A stretch of 64,000 bases of DNA from an uncultured Dehalococcoidia bacterium (GCA_964508175.1 CAZDRU010000042.1:53261-117260), one strand, 5' to 3'. Counted from the stretch's first letter, positions 32,198-47,802 are shown. Notes: generated by a model from the letters alone, not told the origin. Translations and numbers: made by a program.

Positions 32198-32641
32198 TTA
32201 TTCAATATAACCAATTTTTAAAACAGGCCATATTCGCATAGGAAATCTTCCAACTATTTGTTCGAATAATATAGGTCCAAAATGCCTACTATCAGTACTA
32301 TATTTATGAAAATCTCCACAAACAAAATATTGGTTGCTTGTTAATTTCCATGATTTTTTGATTTCCTTATTTGAATAATAATCATTAATTGGCAATTCCG
32401 AAGACTTAATTCCGTCAATAAAAATTTGGCCATTTTTTACCTGGACATTATCACCAGGCAAACCAACAATTCTTTTTATAAGCAAAGATCTGCTAGAATT
32501 TTTTCTTTTCAATATTACTATTTCGTTTCGATTCAATTCGTCTTTAGTATAGTTATACGTACTAAATAAAAGAACATCTCCATTTTTTATAACTGGAAAC
32601 ATACTCGAACCACGAACAATAATAATTTTCATACGTATCAA
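32198..32641 (-). CDS. sodX: S26-family signal-peptidase-like protease, probable NiSOD maturation protease
   Basis: Ser motif RGSSMFPVI, Lys motif LIKRIVGLPGD, no TM anchor. Immediately downstream of sodN. Confidence 0.65.
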   Translation of the reverse strand: MIRMKIIIVRGSSMFPVIKNGDVLLFSTYNYTKDELNRNEIVILKRKNSSRSLLIKRIVGLPGDNVQVKNGQIFIDGIKSSELPINDYYSNKEIKKSWKLTSNQYFVCGDFHKYSTDSRHFGPILFEQIVGRFPMRIWPVLKIGYIE

Positions 32642-32676
32642 TAAAAAAAACGTCTTTTAAATCAAATTTTCATGAA

Positions 32677-33156
32677 TTAAGCAGTATAAATTAAGGAGCC
32701 TCCTCCAGTTTGATTTGAATCATTTTCAACTGTTTTAACTCCTTTGGTGTCCCAGAATATCTTAGAAATTTCTTTTACTGAAACAAGTAGATCTTCTGCA
32801 GCTGCTTTATTAATTTCTTGACGAACTTTGGAGGCTGCTTTCATGGCATTCCAAAAATGCGTGTGGAGATCCGGATGTTTTTCTAAATGTTCTGGTTTAA
32901 AATAATCTCCCCAAATAATTCTTAATTCTTGCTTACATAATTCAGCAGATTCTTCTTTAACTGCAATATATCTTGATAATTTAGCATCCTTACCTGCTGA
33001 ATCAAGATCTTCAATTAATTGATTCATTCTAACTGTTGTCAATGCTGCTATTTGAGCTAAATGTGGATCATAAATCCCACAGGGAATATCACAGTGTGCA
33101 TAAGCAAATTCTGGAATAACTTTTTTAATAGCTTTTTTAATATTTGTTATATTCAT
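32677..33156 (-). CDS. sodN: Nickel superoxide dismutase precursor
   Basis: 20-aa leader MNITNIKKAIKKVIPEFAYA followed by the Ni-hook HCDIPCGIYDP. Four-helix-bundle-sized body (159 aa). Confidence 0.9.
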   Translation of the reverse strand: MNITNIKKAIKKVIPEFAYAHCDIPCGIYDPHLAQIAALTTVRMNQLIEDLDSAGKDAKLSRYIAVKEESAELCKQELRIIWGDYFKPEHLEKHPDLHTHFWNAMKAASKVRQEINKAAAEDLLVSVKEISKIFWDTKGVKTVENDSNQTGGGSLIYTA

Positions 33157-39468: not shown

Positions 39469-40428
39469 TTACTGGGATTTATCAGCAATGATATTTCCTA
39501 AATATCCCGAACGATAATCTGAAAAAGCTTTTTCTAATTCTGAATAATTATTCATCACAAAAGGACCATACCAAGCAACTGGTTCTTGTATAGGTAATCC
39601 TCCTAATATTAATATTTCCAAATTATTAGACCTACTATCCTGGATTCGATTAGCTCCAATTTTGATAAAATCCCCCTGACCAAATAATATTGCTTGTCCA
39701 GACAAAATTGGTATTGTTTCATTCCCTACATATCCACTCCCACTAAGAATATAACCCAAAGCATTAAATGATTTTTCCCATGGAATTTCCATCACAGAAT
39801 CAGGATGAACACTAGCATGAATAATAGATACAGGAGTATACGTATTTCCCGGACCAGAAAAACCTCCTATATCCCCAGCAATAATTCTAATTAAAGCGCC
39901 TGTATTATACGTTGTAAGTAATTTAAGATTACTCCCATGTATATCTTGATACCTAGGATGAATTAATTTCATAGAAGAAGGAAGATTTACCCATATTTGG
40001 ACTCCATGAAAGAGTCCTCCTTTTAAAACTGCTTCTTCAGTAGGAGCTTCAATATGTAGTATTCCAGAACCAGCAGTCATCCATTGTGTATCCCCATTCC
40101 CAATAATTCCACCACCACCATTTGAGTCTTTATGTTTAAACTGACCATCTATTAAATAAGTAACTGTCTCAAAACCTCTATGAGGATGCCACGGTGTTCC
40201 TTTTGCTTCTCCAACTTCCCATTCAACTTCTCCCATCTGATCCATCATTATAAAAGGATCAATATCAGTTAATGAAAATTCTGAAAATGCACGACGGACT
40301 GGAAATCCTTCTCCCTCAAAACCTTTCGGAGCCATGGTTATATTTTTAACAGGTCTTAGAATAGCAGAATCTATCGGTTGTTGAATTTTATCTAAAGACA
40401 GTAAATTATTAACAGTAATTGCTGGCAT
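39469..40428 (-). CDS. Pirin-family protein
   Basis: WHPHRGFETVTYLIDGQFKHKDS, MTAGSGILHIE, bicupin length (319 aa). Confidence 0.85.
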   Translation of the reverse strand: MPAITVNNLLSLDKIQQPIDSAILRPVKNITMAPKGFEGEGFPVRRAFSEFSLTDIDPFIMMDQMGEVEWEVGEAKGTPWHPHRGFETVTYLIDGQFKHKDSNGGGGIIGNGDTQWMTAGSGILHIEAPTEEAVLKGGLFHGVQIWVNLPSSMKLIHPRYQDIHGSNLKLLTTYNTGALIRIIAGDIGGFSGPGNTYTPVSIIHASVHPDSVMEIPWEKSFNALGYILSGSGYVGNETIPILSGQAILFGQGDFIKIGANRIQDSRSNNLEILILGGLPIQEPVAWYGPFVMNNYSELEKAFSDYRSGYLGNIIADKSQ

Positions 40429-40466
40429 AATTGAAAACCTTACCTTAATTCTTATTACTTAGCATT

Positions 40467-41051
40467 TCAAGTCAAAAATCGAGCTTTAGATACAAAATAA
40501 TTATCTCTAATAAAAAATCTTAATTTTCTTTTCAAATCTTTTTTAACTCCAACTCTATAAGTCGATTGAATCTCTATTTTTTCAGTATTATTTAATATAA
40601 ACAATTTGCCATTTTTATCAGTTATTTTAGTATTATTAAAATCTTTTGTTATCATCAATGATTGAGTCAATTTCCCTGGCCCATTAGTTAAATTTATTCC
40701 TTTGTTTTTTCTATGTTTCTCCATAGTTGTAATCCCTGTTAATGGTTCTATAGCTCTAATAAGAACTGCAGATGCTATATTCATTGGCATAGTTACAATA
40801 TTTAAAAGCCAATTAGCATGCACCATATAGATAAAAATCGTTCCAGGTTCATCCCACATTAATTTTGCAAAATTGTTATAGCCTTTGTAAGCTCTAGACG
40901 CAGGATCATTTGTAGAATAATAAGCTTCAGTTTCAACAATTTTACCTGCTAAAACTTCATTACCTATATTTCTAACAATAATTTTCCCTAAAAGTTGTTT
41001 TGCAATAAAAGCTGCATCTTGTGAATAAAATTTTTTATTTAAAATACACAT
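40467..41051 (-). CDS. mpg: DNA-3-methyladenine glycosylase (MPG/AAG family)
   Basis: FYSQDAAFIAKQLLGK, VETEAYYSTNDPASRAYKG, PGTIFIYMVHANWLLNIV. Confidence 0.85.
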   Translation of the reverse strand: MCILNKKFYSQDAAFIAKQLLGKIIVRNIGNEVLAGKIVETEAYYSTNDPASRAYKGYNNFAKLMWDEPGTIFIYMVHANWLLNIVTMPMNIASAVLIRAIEPLTGITTMEKHRKNKGINLTNGPGKLTQSLMITKDFNNTKITDKNGKLFILNNTEKIEIQSTYRVGVKKDLKRKLRFFIRDNYFVSKARFLT

Positions 41052-41213
41052 AAAAATATCGTTTTTTTGTTTTTGGAAAGAATTATTATTAACAAGAAAA
41101 TACTACACAGAAGAATTGAATTTCACAAATCTTGAAATTAAGTTCTTTTACTTGAATATTTTTATAGATTTATAGTATCTTTTATCTAAAATTATTTAAA
41201 AAGAGATTTTAGT

Positions 41214-42230
41214 ATGACAACTACACTTACAAAGGTACTAATTGTTGGATGCGGAGCTATGGCTCGAGAACATATTAAACGCATCCTTCCTAACTTTAAA
41301 AATACTGTGATTCCTATAATATGTGAACCTTCAAATGAAGCCTATTTAGAAACTATAAAAATATTTAAAGAAAATAATCGTCCAGAACCTATAAACGAAC
41401 CTGACTTAAAGAAAGCACTAATAAAGTATGCTAATAAATTAGACGTAGCTTTTATTATCACGCCTCATTCAATGCACTATTCTCAAGCGAAAATGTGTAT
41501 GGAAGCTGGACTTGATATACTAATTGAAAAACCTATGGTAATGAACCCTAAAGAAGCAATTGAACTGATAAAAACACGAGATCACACGAAGAAATTAGCA
41601 GCAGTAGCATTTCAAGGAAGCATGTCTCCTCAGATTAGAACTGCTATGCAATTATTAGAATCTGGAAAATTAGGTCGAATTACAAATATTTCTGGAATAG
41701 TATGGCAAAATTGGGCAAAATCTCAAGCTGGACAATGGAGATCAAATCCTGAAATTTCGGGAGGCGGATTTCTTTTCGACACAGGAGCTCACCTTTTAAA
41801 TACTGTAGCAAATTTAGCTGGTGAAGATTTCACTCGAATTTCTGCAATATTACATAAAGGAGAATATAAAGTAGAGATATCTGGTGTAATCATGGCACAA
41901 CTTAAATCTGGGATATTAGTAACATTAAACGGTTGTGGCGAATCTATAATTTCCTGTGCTGCAGATATACGTGTATTTTGTACAAAAGCCATTTTAAGAA
42001 CAGATTCATGGGGGAAATTCTTAGATATTCAATGGCATCGAGAAACTGGATGGGAAAAAGTAAATGTTCCCGAATCTAGCGGGGTTTGGGAAGAATTTCT
42101 TTCTGTGAGAGAAGGTAAAATAGCAAATCCTTCACCATTAGAACTAGGATTACGAACTGCAAAAATGTGGGAAAACATTAAAAAATCTGCAGCAAATAAT
42201 GGAAATCCTATCGAAATAAAAAACAATTAA
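41214..42230 (+). CDS. Gfo/Idh/MocA-family NAD(P)-dependent oxidoreductase
   Basis: N-terminal Rossmann VLIVGCGAMAREH. EKPM motif (ILIEKPMV). Confidence 0.7.
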   Translation: MTTTLTKVLIVGCGAMAREHIKRILPNFKNTVIPIICEPSNEAYLETIKIFKENNRPEPINEPDLKKALIKYANKLDVAFIITPHSMHYSQAKMCMEAGLDILIEKPMVMNPKEAIELIKTRDHTKKLAAVAFQGSMSPQIRTAMQLLESGKLGRITNISGIVWQNWAKSQAGQWRSNPEISGGGFLFDTGAHLLNTVANLAGEDFTRISAILHKGEYKVEISGVIMAQLKSGILVTLNGCGESIISCAADIRVFCTKAILRTDSWGKFLDIQWHRETGWEKVNVPESSGVWEEFLSVREGKIANPSPLELGLRTAKMWENIKKSAANNGNPIEIKNN

Positions 42231-42268
42231 TACATAATATTCACATTAAATAAAAATAGGAGAAAACT

Positions 42269-42991
42269 ATGATTAAATTACCTAAAGTTACTGTATGGAA
42301 CGAATTTCAACAAGAAAAAACAGATAAACCTGTCGCTCGAGTTTACCCTGAAGGAATACATTCAGTTATTGCAAAATATCTAAAAAGTGAAGGATTTCCT
42401 GTACAAACAGCAACATTAGACGAAAAAGAACATGGATTAACCGAAAAAACATTATCAGAAACAGATGTTTTAATTTGGTGGGGACATAGATCTCATCAAG
42501 ACGTAAGTGATGATATCGTAAATCGGATTTATCAAAGAGTATTAGATGGAATGGGACTTATAGCACTACATTCCAGTCATTTATCAAAAATTTTCGTCAA
42601 ATTAATGGGAACAAGTTGTTTATTAGGATCTTGGCGAGAAGATGGGAAAAAAGAATCTATATGGGTAATTGAACCTAATCATCCAATTGCAAATGGACTA
42701 GGACCTTCATTTGAAATACCTCAAACAGAAATGTACAGTGAAAGATTTGACGTGCCAAATCCAGATACATTGGTATTTATTAGTTCTTTTGAAGAAGGGG
42801 AAGTATTTCGAAGTGGATGTTGTTATAACAGAGGTCTTGGTAAAATATTCTATTTTAGACCAGGACATGAAACTTATCCGATATTTTTTCAAAAAGAAGT
42901 ACAACAAGTTATAAAAAATGCTGTACTTTGGGCAACTCCTCAAACAGAAATCAAAGCAACTGAAGAATGGACAACTCGCATAAAAAAATAA
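42269..42991 (+). CDS. ThuA-like (trehalose-utilization, class-I glutamine-amidotransferase-like fold) protein
   Basis: VTVWNEFQQEK...YPEGIHSVIA, DVLIWWGHRSHQDV, GLIALHSSHLSKIF, IEPNHPIANGL. Confidence 0.75.
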   Translation: MIKLPKVTVWNEFQQEKTDKPVARVYPEGIHSVIAKYLKSEGFPVQTATLDEKEHGLTEKTLSETDVLIWWGHRSHQDVSDDIVNRIYQRVLDGMGLIALHSSHLSKIFVKLMGTSCLLGSWREDGKKESIWVIEPNHPIANGLGPSFEIPQTEMYSERFDVPNPDTLVFISSFEEGEVFRSGCCYNRGLGKIFYFRPGHETYPIFFQKEVQQVIKNAVLWATPQTEIKATEEWTTRIKK

Positions 42992-43035
42992 TTCTATTTG
43001 ATTAATAACATTTTTTTATAATTAGGAGTTATAAA

Positions 43036-44193
43036 ATGAAACGAAAACTCAGGATGGGAATGGTAGGAGGAGGAAGAGATGCCTTTATAGGGCCAATTCA
43101 TCGAATATCTGCCTCAATGGATAATAAAATTGAATTAGTATGTGGAGCTTTTAGCAGTTCAGCAAAAAAATCACAATTAAGTGGCAAAGATTTATTATTG
43201 CCAGCTAATCGAATTTATAACAACTACGAAGAAATGTTTGTTAAAGAAAGTAAATTGCCCCAAAATAAAAAAATGGATTTTGTATCAATTGTTACTCCAA
43301 ATAATATGCATTATCCAATTGCAATGAGTGCTCTTGATCACGAATTTCATGTAGTCTGTGATAAACCTATGACAATAAATATCAAAGAAGCGGAAAATTT
43401 AAGGAAAAAAGTTCAATCTACAAACAAATTATTCTGTCTGACTCATAACTATACTGGCACTCCAATGGTAAAAGAAGCACGTGAAATGATAATTAATAAT
43501 CAACTGGGACCTATCAGACGAGTAGTTGCAGAATATCCTCAAGGATGGTTATCTGAAAATATCGAACAAGAAGGGCAAAAACAAGCATCATGGCGAACAA
43601 ATCCTGAAATTGCAGGATTATCCTCTTGCATGGGAGATATTGGAACACATTGTGAAAATTTAATTGAATATATAACTGGACTTGAAATCACTGAACTATG
43701 TGCTGATCTTAATACATTTGTAAAAGGACGTGGGTTAGATGATGACGGAAGTATTCTTTTGAAATTAGGTAAAAACACACGTGGAATACTATGGGCTAGT
43801 CAAATCGCCATAGGAGAAGAAAATGGTTTGAATATTCGAGTATATGGTGAAAAAGGCTCCCTAGAATGGCATCAAAAAGAACCAAATACCCTTTTAGTTC
43901 ATTGGCTAAATAAACCAACTGAATTAAAAAGAACAGCAACTCCCTTTGTAGGAAAAACTTCGATTTCCAATACACGTCTTCCTGCAGGACATCCAGAAGG
44001 ATATATTGAGGCATTTGCAAATATTTATAATAATTTCGCTAATGCTTTATCAAATGAAATACTCAAAAAAACGAATAAATCAACGAAGTATGATTATCCA
44101 AGTGTAGACGACGGTGTTCGTGGAATGTTATTCCTAGATGCAGTGATTAGAAGCAATAAAAACGAAAAAAAATGGACTAAAATAACTAAATAA
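43036..44193 (+). CDS. Gfo/Idh/MocA-family oxidoreductase (ThuB-like size class)
   Basis: MGMVGGGRDAFIGPIHR, VVCDKPMT, WRTNPEIAG. Confidence 0.75.
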   Translation: MKRKLRMGMVGGGRDAFIGPIHRISASMDNKIELVCGAFSSSAKKSQLSGKDLLLPANRIYNNYEEMFVKESKLPQNKKMDFVSIVTPNNMHYPIAMSALDHEFHVVCDKPMTINIKEAENLRKKVQSTNKLFCLTHNYTGTPMVKEAREMIINNQLGPIRRVVAEYPQGWLSENIEQEGQKQASWRTNPEIAGLSSCMGDIGTHCENLIEYITGLEITELCADLNTFVKGRGLDDDGSILLKLGKNTRGILWASQIAIGEENGLNIRVYGEKGSLEWHQKEPNTLLVHWLNKPTELKRTATPFVGKTSISNTRLPAGHPEGYIEAFANIYNNFANALSNEILKKTNKSTKYDYPSVDDGVRGMLFLDAVIRSNKNEKKWTKITK

Positions 44194-44216
44194 TAATTAA
44201 AAAAACGGAGGCAAAA

Positions 44217-45209
44217 ATGATTAGGCCAGTTACTTTATTTACCGGACAATTTGCAGATATACCTATCAAAGAACTTGCCCCTAAAGCTGCTAAATGGGGA
44301 TACGAAGGATTAGAACTAGCTTGTTGGGGAGATCATTTAAATGTAGATCTTGCAGCTAAAGATATGAACTATGTAAAAACCCATTTAAAAATGTTAAAAA
44401 GTTATGGACTAAACGTTTTTTCAATCAGTAATCACTTGGCAGGTCAATTAGTGTGTGATCCAAACGATGATTCTCGTTCAGATATGTTCGCACCTAAAGA
44501 ATATCATGGACAACCAGAAGGCAAACGAAAATGGGCTATTCAAACAATGCTAAATACAGCAAAGGCTGCTAAAAATTTAGGAGTTGAAATAGTAAACGGT
44601 TTCACTGGCTCATCCATTTGGCATATGATTTATAGTTTTCCTCCAGTAAGTGACGAAATAATTGAAAATGGTTTCGAATATTTCGCTAAAATGTGGAATC
44701 CTATTTTTGATGAATTTGACAAAAATGGAATAAAATTTGCTTTAGAAGTGCATCCGACCGAAATCGCATTTGATATTATAACTGCAAAACGAGCTCTTAA
44801 AGCTGTAAATTATCGGAAAACTTTTGGATTTAATTTTGATCCCAGCCATTTATATTGGCAAATGTTGAACCCTGCAAAATTTTTACAAATTTTTTCAGAT
44901 CGAATATATCACACACATATGAAAGATGCAGCTATAACTTTAGATGGAGAATCAGGCATTTTAGGATCTCATTTAAATTTCGGAACTCATGGACGTGGTT
45001 GGGATTTTCGTAGTCTTGGACGTGGAGATATTAACTTCGAAGAAATTATACGAACTTTAAACCGAATTAATTATAAAGGTCCTTTGTCTGTAGAATGGGA
45101 AGATGCAGCTATGGATCGAGAATTTGGAGCAACAGAAGGATGTAAATTTGTTAAAGATTTACAATTTAATGCTTCTGATCGAGTTTTTGATGAAGCTTTT
45201 GGAGAATAA
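44217..45209 (+). CDS. Xylose-isomerase-like TIM-barrel protein (sugar phosphate isomerase/epimerase superfamily)
   Basis: WGYEGLELACWGDH, FALEVHPTEIAFD, HTHMKD, SVEWED metal-ligand-like pattern. Confidence 0.75.
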   Translation: MIRPVTLFTGQFADIPIKELAPKAAKWGYEGLELACWGDHLNVDLAAKDMNYVKTHLKMLKSYGLNVFSISNHLAGQLVCDPNDDSRSDMFAPKEYHGQPEGKRKWAIQTMLNTAKAAKNLGVEIVNGFTGSSIWHMIYSFPPVSDEIIENGFEYFAKMWNPIFDEFDKNGIKFALEVHPTEIAFDIITAKRALKAVNYRKTFGFNFDPSHLYWQMLNPAKFLQIFSDRIYHTHMKDAAITLDGESGILGSHLNFGTHGRGWDFRSLGRGDINFEEIIRTLNRINYKGPLSVEWEDAAMDREFGATEGCKFVKDLQFNASDRVFDEAFGE

Positions 45210-45211
45210 AA

Positions 45212-45673
45212 ATGCACTTTAAAAAATTAAACATTATTTCTATTTTTTTTACTTCGCTACTCTTAATAATTTTATTAGCCTGTACAGATTCAAACACTAA
45301 AACAGAAACTCATTCTATTAATTTAAACATTAAAAACGGCACATTAGTCGAAGAAATAACGATTAAAGCAAATCAAAAAGATACTATTATCTTTAATATA
45401 AGAAGCGACCAACGAGGAATTGTTCACTTACATGGATATAATATCGAAATGCCTGCAGAAAAAAACATCCTAAACACCTCAACGATAGAAGCAACTACAA
45501 CAGGCAAATTTGCTATTGCTTTTCACTTTTCAAATCATCATGATGATCATAAAGAAAGTGATCATGATGATGATCATAAAGACGCTGAACATAAAGATGA
45601 TGATCATCATGATGATGATCACGAAAAAACAACAGAAACTCATTTAGGATATCTGGAAATATGGCCTAACTAA
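45212..45673 (+). CDS. Lipoprotein with a cupredoxin-like beta-sandwich and a His/Asp/Lys-rich tail. Function unknown.
   Basis: Lipobox LLAC. The pattern ITIKANQKDTIIFNIRSDQRGIVHLHGYNIE...GKFAIAFHF resembles cupredoxin-fold domains but lacks Cys. Tail HHDDHKESDHDDDHKDAEHKDDDHHDDDHEK. ATG lies 2 nt after the upstream stop. Confidence 0.6.
   Translation: MHFKKLNIISIFFTSLLLIILLACTDSNTKTETHSINLNIKNGTLVEEITIKANQKDTIIFNIRSDQRGIVHLHGYNIEMPAEKNILNTSTIEATTTGKFAIAFHFSNHHDDHKESDHDDDHKDAEHKDDDHHDDDHEKTTETHLGYLEIWPN
45536..45622 (+). repeat. Coding low-complexity His/Asp/Lys repeat (CAT/GAT/AAA-rich)
   Basis: DNA reads catcatgatgatcataaa...gatcatgatgatgatcataaa...gatgatgatcatcatgatgatgatcac, which encodes HHDDHK.SDHDDDHK..HKDDDHHDDDH. 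Confidence 0.8.
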
Positions 45674-45682
45674 AAGCAAAAA

Positions 45683-47158
45683 ATGATTCTCAAACATATA
45701 TTAGTCAATAAATTTTTTCGAGTTGGTTTTTTAATATCAATATTTTTATTAATCTTTACTATATTAGATATACAACTTATTTCTGCACATGGATTTGGTG
45801 AACGTTATGATTTGCCGGTTCCTTTAAATTTATATTTACTAGGATCCGCTATAACAATTTTACTCTCTTTCTTAATCATCGCTGCTTTCTTCAAAGTTAA
45901 CACACAAAAAAAACCATTAGCCATTTATATCCCAATCCCCAAAACAGTTTTCTTTTCTTTAAAATCAATATTAAGCACTATATTTTTATTAATCTTTTTT
46001 CTTTTTATCATATCTGGATTTATTGGAAATCCACTTCCATTAAGAAATGTCGCACCAATACTGTTGTGGATAATGCTTTGGATTGGAACAATGTTTGTTT
46101 CAAGTATGATTTTTAATCTTTGGCCCACTATAAATCCATGGAAAACAATGTTTGAAATATTAGAAAAAATAATTAAGAAAACACTAACTAAAAAGAATAT
46201 TTCAAGCTTAAATTTCGAATATCCCAAAAAACTTGGAATGTGGCCCGGTGTAATATTACTATTCTTGTTTGTCTGGATAGAAAATGTTCATCCAGCTTCA
46301 TCTTCTCCCAGATTACTAGCAATGCTTGCTACTCTTTACTCTTTATTAACTTTGACTGGAATGTTTTATTTTGGCAAAAATATTTGGTTAAAAAATGCAG
46401 AATTTTTTTCAATATTTTTCCATTTTGTATCACGATTCTCTCCTTTACATATTAGTGAAAATTTACCTAAAAACACTCCGAAAAATAAACTAATTATTGA
46501 AATAACATTATATGGTTCGAAAGTAATTAGTAGCACAATCAACTCTTTCAGTAAATTATGTTTTATACTCCTCATGTTATCTGCTATAACCTTTGATGGA
46601 TTAAAAGAAACACCTATATGGAATACAATTGATTCCTTTGCATATCAAATACATCCACAATTAACACCTGCTCCAATAAAATCTTTAGGTTTATTAGGTA
46701 CATTTTTAGGTTTCACCTCAATGTATTTTGTCTTTTCATGGATAATGAAACAATTTGCTCAAACTTCTCTCAACCCCGAAGATATTGCTAAACTTTTTGC
46801 GACTTCTTTACTTCCTATTGCTATTGGGTATCATATTGCTCATTATTTCACTTATTTAATAATTCAAGGACAAATCTTAATATTATTAATATCTGATCCT
46901 TTTGGTTTTGACTGGAATCTTTTTGGAACTGCTGACTATACAATAAATATTTCTATTTTGAACGCTAAATTTGCATGGTTTCTAGGAATTAGTGCAATTG
47001 TAATAGGACATATTTTTGCTGTAATTATTGCGCATGTAATAGCATTAAATAATTTCAACAAAAACCAAGCTTTAAAAAGTCAATATCCGATGTTAATTTT
47101 AATGATTCTTTACACAATTTTTAGTTTATGGATAATAGCACAGCCAATAGTTGCTTAA
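45683..47158 (+). CDS. Polytopic (~12 TM) membrane protein of unrecognised family
   Basis: Signal-like N-terminus ending ...QLISA|HGFGERYDLPVPLNLY. Paired His motifs in late helices (IGYHIAHYFTY, VIGHIFAVIIAHV). Starts 9 nt after the lipoprotein gene. Confidence 0.7.
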   Translation: MILKHILVNKFFRVGFLISIFLLIFTILDIQLISAHGFGERYDLPVPLNLYLLGSAITILLSFLIIAAFFKVNTQKKPLAIYIPIPKTVFFSLKSILSTIFLLIFFLFIISGFIGNPLPLRNVAPILLWIMLWIGTMFVSSMIFNLWPTINPWKTMFEILEKIIKKTLTKKNISSLNFEYPKKLGMWPGVILLFLFVWIENVHPASSSPRLLAMLATLYSLLTLTGMFYFGKNIWLKNAEFFSIFFHFVSRFSPLHISENLPKNTPKNKLIIEITLYGSKVISSTINSFSKLCFILLMLSAITFDGLKETPIWNTIDSFAYQIHPQLTPAPIKSLGLLGTFLGFTSMYFVFSWIMKQFAQTSLNPEDIAKLFATSLLPIAIGYHIAHYFTYLIIQGQILILLISDPFGFDWNLFGTADYTINISILNAKFAWFLGISAIVIGHIFAVIIAHVIALNNFNKNQALKSQYPMLILMILYTIFSLWIIAQPIVA

Positions 47159-47164
47159 AAATCC

Positions 47165-47193
47165 TTGACATGTGTACTTGATTTACCTAGAAT
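47165..47193 (+). promoter_or_regulatory. Near-consensus sigma70-type promoter for rplU-rpmA-rpmE
   Basis: TTGACA (47165-47170), 17-nt spacer, TAGAAT (47188-47193). It lies 18 nt upstream of the rplU ATG. Confidence 0.5.
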
Positions 47194-47210
47194 TTTTTAT
47201 TGGAGTAAAA

Positions 47211-47552
47211 ATGGAATACGCTATAATCAAAACTGGAGGCAAACAATATCAAGTAATACCAGGTGAAACTGTTGATGTTGAAAAATTGCCAGTAGAACAA
47301 GGTTCTTTAATTGAATTAGACAACGTTCTTGCTATTTCGAAGAAAGGGAAAATTCGTTTTGGTTCCCCTACACTCAAAGGAGCAAAAGTCGTTGCTGAAG
47401 TTACAGATCAAGCAAAGGATGACAAAATTACTGTATTTAAATTCAAACCAAAAACACGATACAGCGTTAAAAAAGGACATCGAAGAGCTTTTACACGGCT
47501 TAAGATACGAGAAATTTTATCGCGATCTACTAGGAGTAAAGATGGCTCATAA
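47211..47552 (+). CDS. rplU: 50S ribosomal protein L21
   Basis: [15 protein letters not shown]...[17 protein letters not shown] 47211 with a GGAG RBS. The upstream extension in the ORF track is rejected. Confidence 0.95.
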
Positions 47553-47802
47553 AAAAGCAGGTGGTAGTAGTAGAAATGGTCGAGATTCGAATTCGAAACG
47601 ATTAGGTGTGAAAAAATATAGTGGAGAATTTGTTTTATCAGGAAATATTATTGTTCGACAAAGAGGTTCAAAAATAACCGCGGGAACAAATGTTAAAATT
47701 GGCAAAGATCATACTTTGTTCTCTCTTATTGATGGCTCAATTCAATATGAATGGGGGAAAAAGGGAAAACGACAAGTTAGTGTTTACCCATTTAATACAT
47801 AA
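47542..47802 (+). CDS. rpmA: 50S ribosomal protein L27
   Basis: [26 protein letters not shown]..., [13 protein letters not shown]. Overlaps rplU by 11 nt. Confidence 0.95.

What the first reader, a model, noticed from the sequence alone, without database searches (positions are those of the whole stretch)
45212..47158. Unrecognised two-gene membrane module: cupredoxin-like His/Asp-rich lipoprotein plus a 12-TM protein with a predicted N-terminal His, fused onto the end of the sugar-oxidoreductase operon
What the sequence shows:
- The 153-aa protein has a lipobox (LLAC). It has a beta-sandwich segment whose pattern (ITIKANQKDTIIFNIRSDQRGIVHLHGYNIE...GKFAIAFHF) resembles cupredoxin-fold domains but has no Cys.
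- It ends in a 30-residue tail that is almost entirely His/Asp/Lys (HHDDHKESDHDDDHKDAEHKDDDHHDDDHEK), like the metal-storage or chaperone tails of Ni/Zn/Cu proteins.
- Nine nt later, a 491-aa protein with about 12 TM helices begins. Its signal-like N-terminus would expose His as residue 1 if it is cleaved after ...LISA.
- The late helices of this protein carry paired histidines (IGYHIAHYFTY, GHIFAVIIAHV).

What follows from known families: an N-terminal His is a hallmark of CopC/YcnI-type Cu sites and of HupE/UreJ Ni permeases.

Inference: I cannot assign either protein to a family. The lipoprotein ATG lies only 2 nt after the TIM-barrel gene stop, so the pair is probably co-transcribed with the Gfo/ThuA operon. 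Two readings are possible. One is a new metal (Ni/Cu/Zn) acquisition pair, which is attractive because this genome uses NiSOD. The other is a new uptake system for the operon's substrate.
Basis: partly seen in the sequence, partly recalled or inferred. Interest (0 to 1): 0.65.

Follow-up and report, generated by a model that had tools for sequence, protein, structure and literature searches.

The report
Uncharacterised copper-linked cupredoxin plus membrane-protein pair
Two adjacent genes encode a cysteine-free, histidine-rich cupredoxin-fold lipoprotein and a 10-helix membrane protein whose mature first residue is an almost invariant histidine; this pair recurs across many bacterial phyla, belongs to no described family, and most likely moves copper across or to the membrane.

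Summary
The 153-aa protein is a lipoprotein with an 8-strand cupredoxin fold, no cysteine and invariant H72-x-H74 and H105. Its His/Asp stretch is an internal loop, not a tail. The 491-aa protein has about 10 TM helices after a cleavable signal peptide, not 12. Its mature end, HGFGERYDLPxP, is conserved in 119/119 full-length homologues.

The membrane protein matches no Pfam, NCBIfam or PDB entry by sequence. A confident model (pLDDT 85) has no Foldseek match in the PDB. The family has about 6,700 clusters at 50% identity.

The pairing holds across phyla: at least 51 of 63 membrane-gene loci, and 4 of 4 loci found from the partner. The sugar-operon adjacency occurs only in this lineage.

Recurrent neighbours point to copper: YtkA/CtaK-like chaperone (about 29 loci), CopA-type ATPase (7), CopC/CopD (6), SCO1 and cytochrome oxidase (2), DUF2946-like (5). 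Where the cupredoxin is absent, a CopC-CopD fusion often takes its place.

Best reading: a new copper capture and transfer module, analogous but not homologous to CopC/CopD, probably an importer (confidence 0.5). No nickel gene recurred among the neighbours; sugar uptake is rejected.

The parts
45212..45673 (+). Gene for the 153-aa Cys-less cupredoxin-fold lipoprotein (the 'partner')
   Evidence: ORF. Weak Pfam Cupredoxin_1 hit. AF2 model with 8 strands. Foldseek hits cupredoxin structures. More than 4,222 homologues.
45212..45283 (+). Signal peptide with lipobox (MHFKK...ILLAC, C24)
   Evidence: Read directly from the sequence. Chloroflexota homologues have a lipobox (..AACGGG). Proteobacterial homologues have an ordinary signal peptide.
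45425..45439 (+). Invariant H72-L-H74-G-Y motif at the end of strand 4
   Evidence: Invariant in alignments A2 and A3. It aligns with the first HxHG copper motif of two-domain laccases at profile E about 4e-3.
45524..45526 (+). H105, a conserved His at the end of strand 7
   Evidence: Invariant in A3 and nearly invariant in A2. Strand 7 spans residues 98-107 in the model.
45533..45625 (+). His/Asp/Lys-rich variable loop (aa 108-138), encoded by an imperfect tandem array
   Evidence: Model pLDDT below 50 here. Length is variable in all homologues. TRF array at 45540-45621 with period 15/27. Repeat copy number differs among otherwise identical relatives of 134-172 aa. Long homologues carry whole extra domains in this loop.
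45626..45670 (+). Conserved last strand (..THLGYLEIWPN)
   Evidence: L145, E149 and P152 are conserved. Strand 140-151 in the model.
45683..47158 (+). Gene for the 491-aa polytopic membrane protein (about 10 TM helices, N-terminus and C-terminus outside)
   Evidence: ORF. AF2 pLDDT 85.1, pTM 0.84. Topology from hydropathy and the positive-inside rule. No family or fold match. 6,735 cluster representatives.
45683..45787 (+). Predicted cleavable signal peptide (aa 1-35, ...LISA)
   Evidence: A small-x-Ala site precedes the His in essentially all homologues: AYA, VYA, AFA and similar. A35 is conserved in 238 of 258 sequences.
45788..45826 (+). Mature N-terminal motif H36-GFGERYDLPVPL
   Evidence: HG[FYI]G.RYDLPxP is found in 119 of 119 full-length homologues. 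H36 is conserved in 249 of 252 non-gap sequences.
46280..46282 (+). E200, a conserved acidic residue at the outer end of TM4
   Evidence: Conserved in 251 of 258. Position from the topology.
46595..46597 (+). D305 (FDG motif) at the outer end of TM6
   Evidence: Conserved in 255 of 258. Position.
46841..46843 (+). H387 in TM8
   Evidence: Conserved in 253 of 258.
46892..46906 (+). SDPFG motif in the outside loop between TM8 and TM9
   Evidence: S404, D405, P406 and G408 are 94% or more conserved.
47009..47035 (+). H443 ... H451 in TM9 (GHIFAVIIAH)
   Evidence: Conserved in 249 and 250 of 258.
47090..47104 (+). M470-xxx-M474 in the inner half of TM10
   Evidence: M474 is conserved in 246 of 258. 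M470 is conserved in 201 of 258, with Leu in 34.
41214..45209 (+). Upstream Gfo/Idh/MocA - ThuA - Gfo/Idh/MocA - xylose-isomerase-like TIM-barrel genes. This is context only and not part of the module.
   Evidence: Pfam assignments. The adjacency is found only in L001 among 81 loci.
47165..47193 (+). Promoter-like site (TTGACA-17-TAGAAT) between the pair and rplU. It marks the downstream end of the transcription unit.
   Evidence: 11 of 12 consensus positions matched.

Best explanation
The two genes encode a copper capture and transfer module that works at the outer face of the cytoplasmic membrane and across it.

Proposed mechanism:
1. The lipoprotein is a Cys-less cupredoxin. Three conserved histidines (H72, H74, H105) sit where cupredoxins normally bind copper. 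The usual ligand loop is replaced by a long, expandable His/Asp 'antenna' that gathers scarce copper.
2. The lipoprotein hands the metal to the 10-TM partner. The partner's mature N-terminus begins with a near-invariant histidine (HGFGERYD), giving a free amine plus imidazole as in CopC and YcnI histidine braces.
3. Copper then passes along conserved acidic, His and Met residues: E200, D305 and D405 at the outer face, H387 and H443 in mid-membrane, and H451, M470 and M474 in the inner half. The direction is most likely inward.
4. In most homologues, but not this one, the metal would arrive at a six-cysteine cytoplasmic loop.

The likely physiological role is copper supply for cuproenzymes, above all heme-copper oxidases.

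Shown: the anatomy, the conservation, the pairing, the lack of any known family or fold, and the copper gene neighbourhood.

Inferred: copper as the metal, the hand-over between the two proteins, the transport path and the direction.
For: Pairing:
- A partner with the H-x-H-G-Y-D motif lies directly upstream of the membrane gene in at least 51 of 63 loci that have upstream sequence. These loci span Chloroflexota, Alphaproteobacteria, Gammaproteobacteria, Nitrospinota, Methylomirabilota and Trueperaceae.
- Starting from the partner instead, 4 of 4 loci have the membrane gene next.

Partner protein:
- It has the cupredoxin fold.
- The invariant HxH and H105 flank the strand 7-8 loop, which is the canonical copper-ligand loop.
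- The HxHG motif aligns to the first copper motif of two-domain laccases.
- It is a lipoprotein in Chloroflexota and a soluble periplasmic protein in Proteobacteria, as binding proteins are.

Membrane protein:
- The signal-peptidase site followed by His is found in 119 of 119 full-length homologues.
- H36, E200, D305, H387, D405, H443, H451 and M474 are 95% or more conserved over 258 sequences.
- The N-out/C-out 10-TM topology fits the positive-inside rule. It also fits the C-terminal fusions to an SBP-family-5-like, necessarily extracytoplasmic, domain (PDB 7fi3 E 2e-17). Tethered binding domains are typical of importers.

Copper context, within about 6 kb in 81 loci:
- YtkA/CtaK-like membrane-anchored protein directly upstream of the partner in about 29 Chloroflexota loci. 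CtaK/YtkA is a CuA-assembly copper chaperone (PMC13344008).
- HMA-domain P1B ATPase in 7 loci.
- CopC and CopD in 6 loci.
- SCO1 plus coxII/I/III in L015, and ctaB plus cox genes in L074.
- DUF2946-like proteins in 5 loci.
- In L046, L049, L070 and L081 the cupredoxin is missing, and a CopC-CopD-YtkA-cytochrome c fusion sits directly upstream of the membrane gene instead.
Against:
- Known copper genes are present in only about a quarter of the loci.
- An unbiased Pfam count of the 146 nearest neighbours is dominated by lineage-specific genes such as EamA, ABC transporters, UbiD, MFS and Lit.
- The loci are phylogenetically non-independent, so the counts overstate the support.
- The window itself contains no other copper gene within 64 kb.
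- Alphaproteobacterial and Methylomirabilota loci associate the pair with a LivHMGF-type ABC importer and SBP5-like proteins of unknown substrate. The transported species could therefore be a chelate, or something other than copper.
- The direction of transport is inferred only.
- The cytoplasmic Cys-rich loop is absent from the window protein and from about a third of the family.
Confidence: 0.5

Rival explanations
1. The pair is a redox-coupled metal system in the manner of FtrABCD or EfeUOB. The cupredoxin oxidises or reduces a metal ion (Fe2+/Fe3+ or Cu+/Cu2+) outside the cell. The membrane protein combines the permease with a transmembrane electron path, using His-ligated cofactor(s) in TM8 and TM9 and a cytoplasmic Cys cluster. 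This would make it a ferroxidase-permease or a cupric/ferric reductase.
For: - Foldseek matches Brucella FtrB (8vuk, TM 0.66 over the target) and the EfeO cupredoxin domain.
- FtrB is a Cys-less cupredoxin ferroxidase that works with a permease and a polyferredoxin (PMC11966278).
- JGI names some homologues 'polyferredoxin'.
- A Cx2Cx3Cx6Cx2Cx2C insert is present in 82 of 120 homologues, in a cytoplasmic loop.
- Cytochrome c domains lie next door in several loci.
- The HxHG motif is shared with multicopper oxidases.
Against: - There is no FTR1-type REXXE permease motif and no Pfam match.
- The Cys insert is missing in the window protein and in a third of the family.
- No P19, EfeB or other iron gene recurred among the neighbours.
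- The FtrB copper ligands (D118, H121) differ from the HxH...H pattern here.
Confidence: 0.15
2. The pair handles copper but does not import it. It either exports or detoxifies copper, or acts as an insertase or chaperone that loads copper into membrane or periplasmic cuproenzymes such as cytochrome oxidase, without net uptake.
For: - CopA-type exporters lie in 7 loci.
- SCO1 and cox clusters lie beside the pair in L015 and L074.
- YtkA/CtaK-like chaperones lie directly upstream in about 29 loci.
- CtaK acts in CuA assembly (PMC13344008).
Against: - The lipoprotein versus periplasmic form of the partner, and the C-terminal fusion of the membrane protein to an SBP-like domain, resemble importers.
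- The adjacent ABC systems are importer types, namely LivHM permeases and Opp/Dpp-type ATPases.
- A streamlined oceanic genome is more likely to need copper than to expel it. This last point is inference.
Confidence: 0.17
3. The pair is a nickel (or zinc) uptake system, HupE/UreJ-like, supplying the NiSOD encoded in the same window.
For: - NiSOD (HCDIPCG motif) and its peptidase lie at 32198-33156 in the window.
- HupE/UreJ permeases also expose an N-terminal His after signal-peptide cleavage (from established knowledge).
- His/Asp-rich stretches also occur in Ni and Zn proteins. There are weak ZnuA and ZrgA hits over the loop only.
Against: - Pfam and NCBIfam gave no match to any family, HupE/UreJ included, for the 491-aa protein.
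- No urease, hydrogenase, NikR, Zur or ZnuABC gene recurred among the neighbours. This rests on the neighbour clustering and the unbiased Pfam count; no Ni- or Zn-specific seed search was run.
- The metal genes that do recur are copper genes.
- The ZnuA and ZrgA hits are compositional (E 0.04-0.06).
Confidence: 0.06
4. The pair is an uptake system for the substrate of the upstream Gfo/ThuA/TIM-barrel sugar-oxidoreductase operon.
For: The 2-nt gap, and the absence of a terminator or promoter between the TIM-barrel gene and the lipoprotein gene, suggest co-transcription in this lineage. The close relative L001 has the same arrangement.
Against: - ThuA and TIM-barrel homologues lie next to the pair only in L001 out of 81 loci.
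- Elsewhere the pair sits in unrelated contexts.
- The conserved residues are His, Met and acidic residues, which is typical of metal sites. The partner is a cupredoxin, not a sugar-binding fold.
Confidence: 0.03

Closest known systems
CopC/CopD and B. subtilis YcnJ/YcnI (with YtkA/CtaK) copper acquisition systems
   Same: - An extracytoplasmic copper-binding beta-sandwich protein works with a polytopic His-containing membrane protein.
- Both have an N-terminal His exposed by signal-peptide cleavage.
- Both associate with YtkA-like chaperones and with heme-copper oxidase biogenesis.
- In four loci a CopC-CopD fusion occupies the position of the cupredoxin partner.
   Different: - There is no sequence or profile relationship to CopD (hhalign probability 0.3%) and no Pfam CopC or CopD match.
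- The N-terminal His is on the membrane protein itself, not on the soluble domain.
- The soluble partner is a cupredoxin, not a CopC or DUF1775 fold.
- It has 10 TM helices rather than about 8, and no Foldseek match in the PDB.
FtrABCD / EfeUOB cupredoxin-dependent ferrous iron transporters
   Same: A Cys-less 'Cup'-type periplasmic cupredoxin is encoded next to a membrane permease. Foldseek links the partner to FtrB and to the EfeO cupredoxin domain.
   Different: - The membrane protein is not an FTR1/EfeU family member and has no REXXE motifs.
- There is no P19, EfeB or M75 partner.
- The conserved ligands differ: HxH...H here, D118/H121 in FtrB (PMC11966278).
- The neighbours are copper genes, not iron genes.
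Domain 1 of multicopper oxidases (two-domain laccases, SLAC type)
   Same: The cupredoxin fold is shared, and the H-x-H-G motif sits in the same place (profile alignment E about 4e-3). JGI labels some homologues 'FtsP/CotA-like multicopper oxidase'.
   Different: - It is a single domain of about 110 residues.
- It lacks the other three copper motifs and the type-1 Cys.
- It cannot form a trinuclear cluster alone.
HupE/UreJ nickel permeases
   Same: Both are polytopic membrane proteins with a cleavable signal peptide that exposes a conserved N-terminal His.
   Different: There is no sequence match. The helix number differs. The partner protein and the gene context also differ.
CuB site of particulate methane monooxygenase subunit PmoB
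   Same: Both combine an N-terminal His (amine plus imidazole) with an HxH pair on a cupredoxin domain. This resemblance is recalled from established knowledge and was not tested here.
   Different: Here the two halves lie on two different polypeptides. There is no homology to PmoA, PmoB or PmoC, and no Foldseek match to pMMO structures.

Membership tests
Cupredoxin fold (Pfam Cupredoxin_1 PF13473 / 'Cup' domains such as FtrB and EfeO-N) | Eight-stranded Greek-key beta-sandwich | tested here: met
   The AF2 model has 8 strands with pLDDT 79.9. Foldseek gives probability 1.00 to CuA domains, FtrB 8vuk, Cupredoxin_1 4hcf/4hci and EfeO 7wgu.
Cupredoxin fold (Pfam Cupredoxin_1 PF13473 / 'Cup' domains such as FtrB and EfeO-N) | Score above Pfam's curated gathering threshold | tested here: not met
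   The window protein scores 22 bits against a cutoff of 27. A longer homologue (L013) reaches 35.9 bits, and P0126 carries a precomputed PF13473 hit.
Type-1 (blue) copper proteins | Ligand set His ... Cys-x(n)-His-x(n)-Met in the strand 7-8 loop | tested here: not met
   The mature protein has no Cys. The loop is replaced by H105 plus a His/Asp-rich insert.
Multicopper oxidases | Four copper motifs (HxHG, HxH, HxxHxH, HCHxxxHxxxxM) over two or more cupredoxin domains | tested here: not met
   Only the first motif, HxHG, is present (H72-L-H74-G75). The protein is a single domain.
CopD (PF05425) | Sequence or profile similarity to CopD | tested here: not met
   No Pfam hit for the window protein or for any of 33 homologues. 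hhalign against CopD proteins from the fetched loci gives probability 0.3%.
CopC / YcnI histidine-brace copper proteins | Mature N-terminal His created by signal-peptide cleavage | tested here: met
   The site AxA|H is found in 119 of 119 full-length homologues. Actual cleavage cannot be tested with these tools.
CopC / YcnI histidine-brace copper proteins | Soluble beta-sandwich domain carrying the brace | tested here: not met
   The N-terminal motif is a 12-residue segment that leads straight into TM1.
HupE/UreJ | Match to the HupE_UreJ family model | tested here: not met
   Pfam and NCBIfam returned no family at E up to 1 for the 491-aa protein.
FTR1/EfeU iron permeases | Family model match and REXXE motifs in TM helices | tested here: not met
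   No Pfam match. No conserved REXXE motif in alignment A1.
Known transporter folds (MFS, APC, RND, NRAMP, ZIP and others) | Structural similarity to a solved member | tested here: not met
YtkA/CtaK-like (the third, upstream gene in Chloroflexota loci; absent from the window) | Match to Pfam YtkA PF13115 | tested here: inconclusive
   8 of 20 members hit YtkA below the cutoff, best E 4.9e-5. A profile hit to PDB 9ll2 'Copper resistance protein' has E 0.016.

The most novel reading that the evidence does not exclude
The mature N-terminal histidine of the membrane protein and the HxH...H site of its Cys-less cupredoxin partner together form a composite histidine-brace copper centre, like the PmoB CuB site but split over two polypeptides. 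This centre would sit on a membrane fold that has no Foldseek match among PDB structures. The pair would then be the founding member of a new class, either of copper permease or of copper-dependent membrane redox enzyme. It is widespread in marine SAR202-type Chloroflexota, Nitrospinota, Methylomirabilota and soil Alphaproteobacteria.
Probability: 0.2. Interest if true: 0.85.

Novelty: new variant of a known kind. Interest (0 to 1): 0.65.

Why it matters
How bacteria acquire copper and route it to cuproenzymes is still poorly understood. Only a few importer candidates are known: CopCD/YcnJ, CcoA and some TonB-dependent receptors.

This pair defines a large family of about 6,700 clusters at 50% identity. 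It is unannotated, has no Pfam or NCBIfam model, and no solved relative was found by sequence or Foldseek search. The family carries the hallmarks of a copper site and is embedded in copper gene neighbourhoods. It occurs in abundant, mostly uncultured ocean and soil lineages that depend on copper enzymes.

If confirmed, it would add a new non-homologous route of copper trafficking. It would also give a name to thousands of 'hypothetical' genes, and would offer a new membrane fold and a new use of the N-terminal-histidine motif. Carriers in culture (Bradyrhizobium spp., Photobacterium sagamiensis) make the idea directly testable.

Tried and rejected
- Sequence searches of the 491-aa protein, alone and as a profile, against Pfam, NCBIfam and PDB found nothing.
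- Profile-profile comparison of the N-terminal and C-terminal halves found no internal repeat.
- Profile-profile comparison with CopD found no relation.
- I tested the association with ThuA, Gfo and TIM-barrel genes across 81 loci. It is lineage-specific, so I rejected the sugar-uptake reading.
- I searched the window for CopA, CopCD, SCO, Cox, YtkA-like, DUF2946-like, c1 and Lit homologues and found none.
- An Rfam scan of 40400-47800 returned only a spurious MIR172 hit on the GAT/CAT repeat.
- Literature searches for this family found no description.
- Single-linkage clustering of all ORFs was too noisy because of antisense ORFs in high-GC loci. I replaced it with greedy gene calls and seed searches.
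- The c1 protein (about 390 aa, GHELPVYPSYYPHEI) could not be assigned to any family.
- Three-dimensional clustering of the conserved His, Met and acidic residues could not be checked because model coordinates are not exposed.
Full report
**1. The observation**

They are 9 nt apart, and the first starts 2 nt after the stop of a xylose-isomerase-like TIM-barrel gene. The genes upstream are Gfo/Idh/MocA, ThuA, Gfo/Idh/MocA and the TIM barrel. Downstream lie rplU and rpmA, behind a strong promoter-like site, TTGACA-17-TAGAAT, at 47165-47193. No terminator or good promoter lies between the TIM-barrel gene and the pair. Co-transcription with the sugar genes is therefore plausible in this lineage.

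**2. The 153-aa protein**

- It starts with a signal peptide and a lipobox (ILLAC, C24) and has no other cysteine.
- Pfam gives only a sub-threshold Cupredoxin_1 hit (E 1.8e-4, 22 bits against a cutoff of 27).
- The word-indexed search with the single sequence found only 8 close relatives.
- After I collected the upstream neighbours of the membrane gene from other genomes and searched with their alignment, the family grew to more than 4,222 proteins. A few of these are labelled by JGI as 'FtsP/CotA-like multicopper oxidase with cupredoxin domain'.
- The AF2 model (56-sequence alignment, pLDDT 79.9) is an 8-strand sandwich.
- Foldseek matches it to CuA domains, Brucella FtrB, the copper-bound B. 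anthracis Cupredoxin_1 protein, the N2O-reductase CuA domain and the EfeO cupredoxin domain, at E 6e-5 to 1e-3.
- The invariant residues are Q55, D57, H72, L73, H74, G75, Y76, A94, G98, F100, H105, L145 and P152.
- A profile search of PDB sequences aligns 'LHLHGYD' with the 'LHVHGLD' HxHG copper motif of domain 1 of two-domain laccases (E about 4e-3).

The His/Asp/Lys stretch is not a tail. It is the loop between strand 7 (ending at H105) and a conserved last strand (LGYLEIWPN). This is the position of the Cys-His-Met ligand loop in classical cupredoxins. I infer this from the strand order and from established knowledge of the fold.

The loop varies in length in every homologue. It is encoded here by an imperfect tandem array at 45540-45621. 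Its repeat copy number differs among otherwise identical environmental relatives of 134 to 172 aa. In long Dehalococcoidia forms the same loop hosts entire extra domains.

**3. The 491-aa protein**

- No Pfam, NCBIfam or PDB sequence match exists for it, for a 33-sequence profile, or for any of the 33 members scanned singly.
- The word-indexed search found more than 2,198 homologues, almost all 'hypothetical'.
- An exhaustive profile search of 1.84 billion 50%-identity representatives found 6,735 hits at E<=1e-3 and 1,704 at E<=1e-30.
- The AF2 model is confident (pLDDT 85.1, pTM 0.84).
- No internal repeat and no relation to CopD could be detected by profile-profile comparison.

Hydropathy plus the positive-inside rule on the alignment give this topology: a cleaved signal peptide, N-terminus outside, ten TM helices, C-terminus outside. 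The C-out assignment has independent support. In Alphaproteobacteria and Methylomirabilota the protein carries a C-terminal extension of about 400 aa that is related to family-5 solute-binding proteins, which must lie outside the cytoplasm (PDB 7fi3 E 2e-17; SBP_bac_5 weak in 9 of 13).

The sequence small-x-Ala | H-G-[FYI]-G-x-R-Y-D-L-P-x-P follows the signal peptide in 119 of 119 full-length homologues. H36 is present in 249 of 252 aligned sequences.

Other residues conserved at 95% or more are listed below by position.
- Outer face: N122, E200, D305 and D405 (in the SDPFG motif).
- Membrane: H387 (TM8), and H443 and H451 (TM9).
- Inner half of TM10: M474. M470 is conserved in 78%, which gives an MxxxM motif.

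Two thirds of the family (82 of 120) carry a Cx2Cx3Cx6Cx2Cx2C insert in the large cytoplasmic loop. The window protein lacks it.

**4. Is the pairing conserved?**

Yes. A scan of one genome per species confirmed 544 relatives, and I kept 80 loci. They come from Dehalococcoidia/SAR202, other Chloroflexota, Methylomirabilota/Rokubacteria, Nitrospinota, Trueperaceae, Xanthobacteraceae including four Bradyrhizobium isolates, Rhodospirillaceae, Sneathiella, Gammaproteobacteria and Photobacterium sagamiensis.

- In at least 51 of the 63 loci with enough upstream sequence, an ORF with the H-x-H-G-Y-[DN] motif lies in the locus upstream of the membrane gene. Where inspected, it ends 70-125 nt before the HGFG motif of the membrane gene. 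One further locus (L017) has a variant motif.
- Starting from the partner instead, 4 of 4 loci have the membrane gene immediately downstream.
- The partner is a lipoprotein in Chloroflexota and has an ordinary signal peptide in Proteobacteria. Binding proteins of importers show the same pattern.

**5. What else travels with the pair?**

The ThuA and TIM-barrel genes are next to the pair only in the near-identical contig L001. The sugar operon is therefore a lineage-specific neighbour.

Recurrent neighbours, by lineage:
- (a) In about 29 Chloroflexota loci, a membrane-anchored protein of 170-200 aa lies directly upstream of the partner. It is YtkA-like (8 of 20 members hit Pfam YtkA, best E 4.9e-5; PDB 'Copper resistance protein' 9ll2 E 0.016). 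YtkA/CtaK is a copper chaperone for CuA assembly, and it is also the C-terminal domain of the copper importer YcnJ (PMC13344008).
- (b) Unassigned His-rich small proteins occur in 14 and 5 loci.
- (c) HMA-domain P1B ATPases occur in 7 loci.
- (d) CopC and CopD occur in 6 loci. In L046, L049, L070 and L081 there is no cupredoxin, and a CopC-CopD-YtkA-cytochrome c fusion sits directly upstream of the membrane gene. This looks like a functional replacement of one periplasmic copper-binding domain by another.
- (e) SCO1 plus coxII/I/III lie about 1 kb downstream in L015, and ctaB plus cox genes lie next to the pair in L074.
- (f) DUF2946-like proteins occur in 5 Nitrospinota loci. DUF2946 is linked to copper in the literature (PMC9426467, PMC8456105).
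- (g) In Alphaproteobacteria and Methylomirabilota, 19 loci have a LivHMGF-type ABC importer, SBP5-like proteins and an unassigned protein of about 390 aa beginning GHELPVYPSYYPHEI.

Caveats:
- Known copper genes are within 6 kb in only about 20 of 81 loci.
- The loci are not phylogenetically independent.
- An unbiased Pfam tally of the 146 nearest neighbours is led by lineage-specific families: EamA, ABC_tran, UbiD, MFS and Lit.
- The window itself has no other copper gene.

**6. Mechanism**

Shown:
- An extracytoplasmic Cys-less cupredoxin has three conserved histidines at the canonical metal site and an expandable His/Asp loop.
- It is conserved next to a membrane protein with no match to any described family or solved fold. 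That protein has a near-invariant mature N-terminal His and a set of conserved acidic, His and Met residues spread from the outer face to the inner leaflet.
- Importer-like features are present: a lipoprotein/periplasmic partner and tethered SBP-like domains.
- The gene neighbourhood is copper-related.

Inferred:
- The lipoprotein captures copper and passes it to the N-terminal His of the membrane protein. A free amine plus imidazole makes this analogous to the CopC and YcnI braces.
- The membrane protein conducts copper inward along E200/D305/D405, then H387/H443, then H451/M474/M470.
- In most homologues the metal reaches a cytoplasmic Cys cluster.
- The physiological role is copper supply for cuproenzymes, especially heme-copper oxidases.

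I put this at about 0.5.

Rivals:
- A redox-coupled FtrABCD/EfeUOB-like system or a metalloreductase (0.15).
- Copper export or cuproenzyme loading without import (0.17).
- Ni or Zn uptake (0.06).
- Uptake of the sugar operon's substrate (0.03).

**7. Comparison with known systems**

Functionally the closest system is CopC/CopD together with YcnJ/YcnI/CtaK. Structurally the partner is closest to 'Cup'-type cupredoxins (FtrB, EfeO-N, Cupredoxin_1) and to domain 1 of multicopper oxidases.

Membership fails for each family tested:
- There is no type-1 ligand set.
- Only one of the four MCO motifs is present.
- The window protein scores below the Pfam threshold for Cupredoxin_1.
- There is no relation to CopD, HupE/UreJ or FTR1.
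- No solved transporter fold matches.

So this works like a CopCD-type system but belongs to none of these families.

**8. Verdict**

It is a new, conserved two-gene metal module, but the candidate metal is copper rather than nickel, and the sugar-operon link is incidental.

I rate it a new variant of a known kind, namely a binding protein plus a permease for a transition metal. It is built from a membrane family that has no described relative and a new use of the N-terminal-His motif. Interest is 0.65. The family is large, phylogenetically broad and entirely unannotated. It bears directly on the open question of bacterial copper acquisition, and culturable carriers exist.

Noticed in passing
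window 45540-45621: The His/Asp loop is encoded by an imperfect tandem array (period 15/27). Environmental relatives that are otherwise identical differ only in the copy number of the HHDDHKESD and DDDHKDAEHK units, giving proteins of 134-172 aa. This suggests slippage-driven tuning of a metal-binding loop within populations.
   Followed up: partly
window 32198-33156 (-): A nickel superoxide dismutase gene (N-terminal ...AHCDIPCGIYDP motif) lies at 32677-33156, with an adjacent small peptidase-like gene at 32198-32641. It is 12 kb away and unlinked to the pair.
   Followed up: no
window 47165-47193 (+): A near-consensus sigma-70-type promoter (TTGACA-17-TAGAAT) lies in the 52-nt gap between the membrane gene and rplU. 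The ribosomal protein genes therefore have their own start.
   Followed up: no
L039, L032, L083, L084, L085 and other alphaproteobacterial and Methylomirabilota loci: A larger conserved operon is present. In order: an SBP5-like protein of about 750 aa, LivH, LivM, LivG, LivF, an unassigned protein of about 390 aa whose mature end is GHELPVYPSYYPHEI (His at position 2), the cupredoxin, and a 10-TM protein fused to an SBP5-like domain. The substrate is unknown and could be a metal chelate.
   Followed up: partly
L013, L030, L040, L043, L059, L077 (about 210-250-aa partners) and L012, L016, L020, L026, L058, L064, L075: Long forms of the partner carry whole extra domains inserted in the same strand 7-8 loop. 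One type has a Cys-less plastocyanin-like motif (PYHNHMxHExxGxIxV). Another has a 'HWHLxVNGxxVGMY' domain.
   Followed up: partly
L046:2385-2798, L070:2356-2784, L016:4003-4470, L061:4850-5350: Two families of small secreted His-rich proteins occur in 14 and 5 Chloroflexota loci near the pair (..DHHYAGRQPGHSHVG.. and ..HAGESHVHRHH..). They have no Pfam match.
   Followed up: partly
L063:4254-5441(-), L048:4695-5873(-), L029:4280-5470(-): In Photobacterium sagamiensis, Sneathiella sp. and an unclassified proteobacterium, a beta-propeller protein of about 395 aa is divergently transcribed from the module. It has weak SBP56 and YNCE hits.
   Followed up: partly
L008, L011, L012, L013, L016, L020, L026, L030, L058: A Lit (lipoprotein intramolecular transacylase) gene lies within the fetched flank of the pair, downstream on the opposite strand in the loci inspected, in 9 Chloroflexota loci. 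A Lit paralogue is copper-induced in Firmicutes. That link is from memory and was not checked.
   Followed up: no
window 45516-45628 (-): Rfam reports a sub-threshold MIR172 hit (29 bits against a gathering score of 70). It is an artefact of the palindromic GATCATCATGATGATC repeat that encodes the His/Asp loop.
   Followed up: yes
window 45925-46227 (-): A 100-aa antisense ORF lies inside the membrane-protein gene. It is almost certainly spurious, because the sense frame is conserved across phyla.
   Followed up: no
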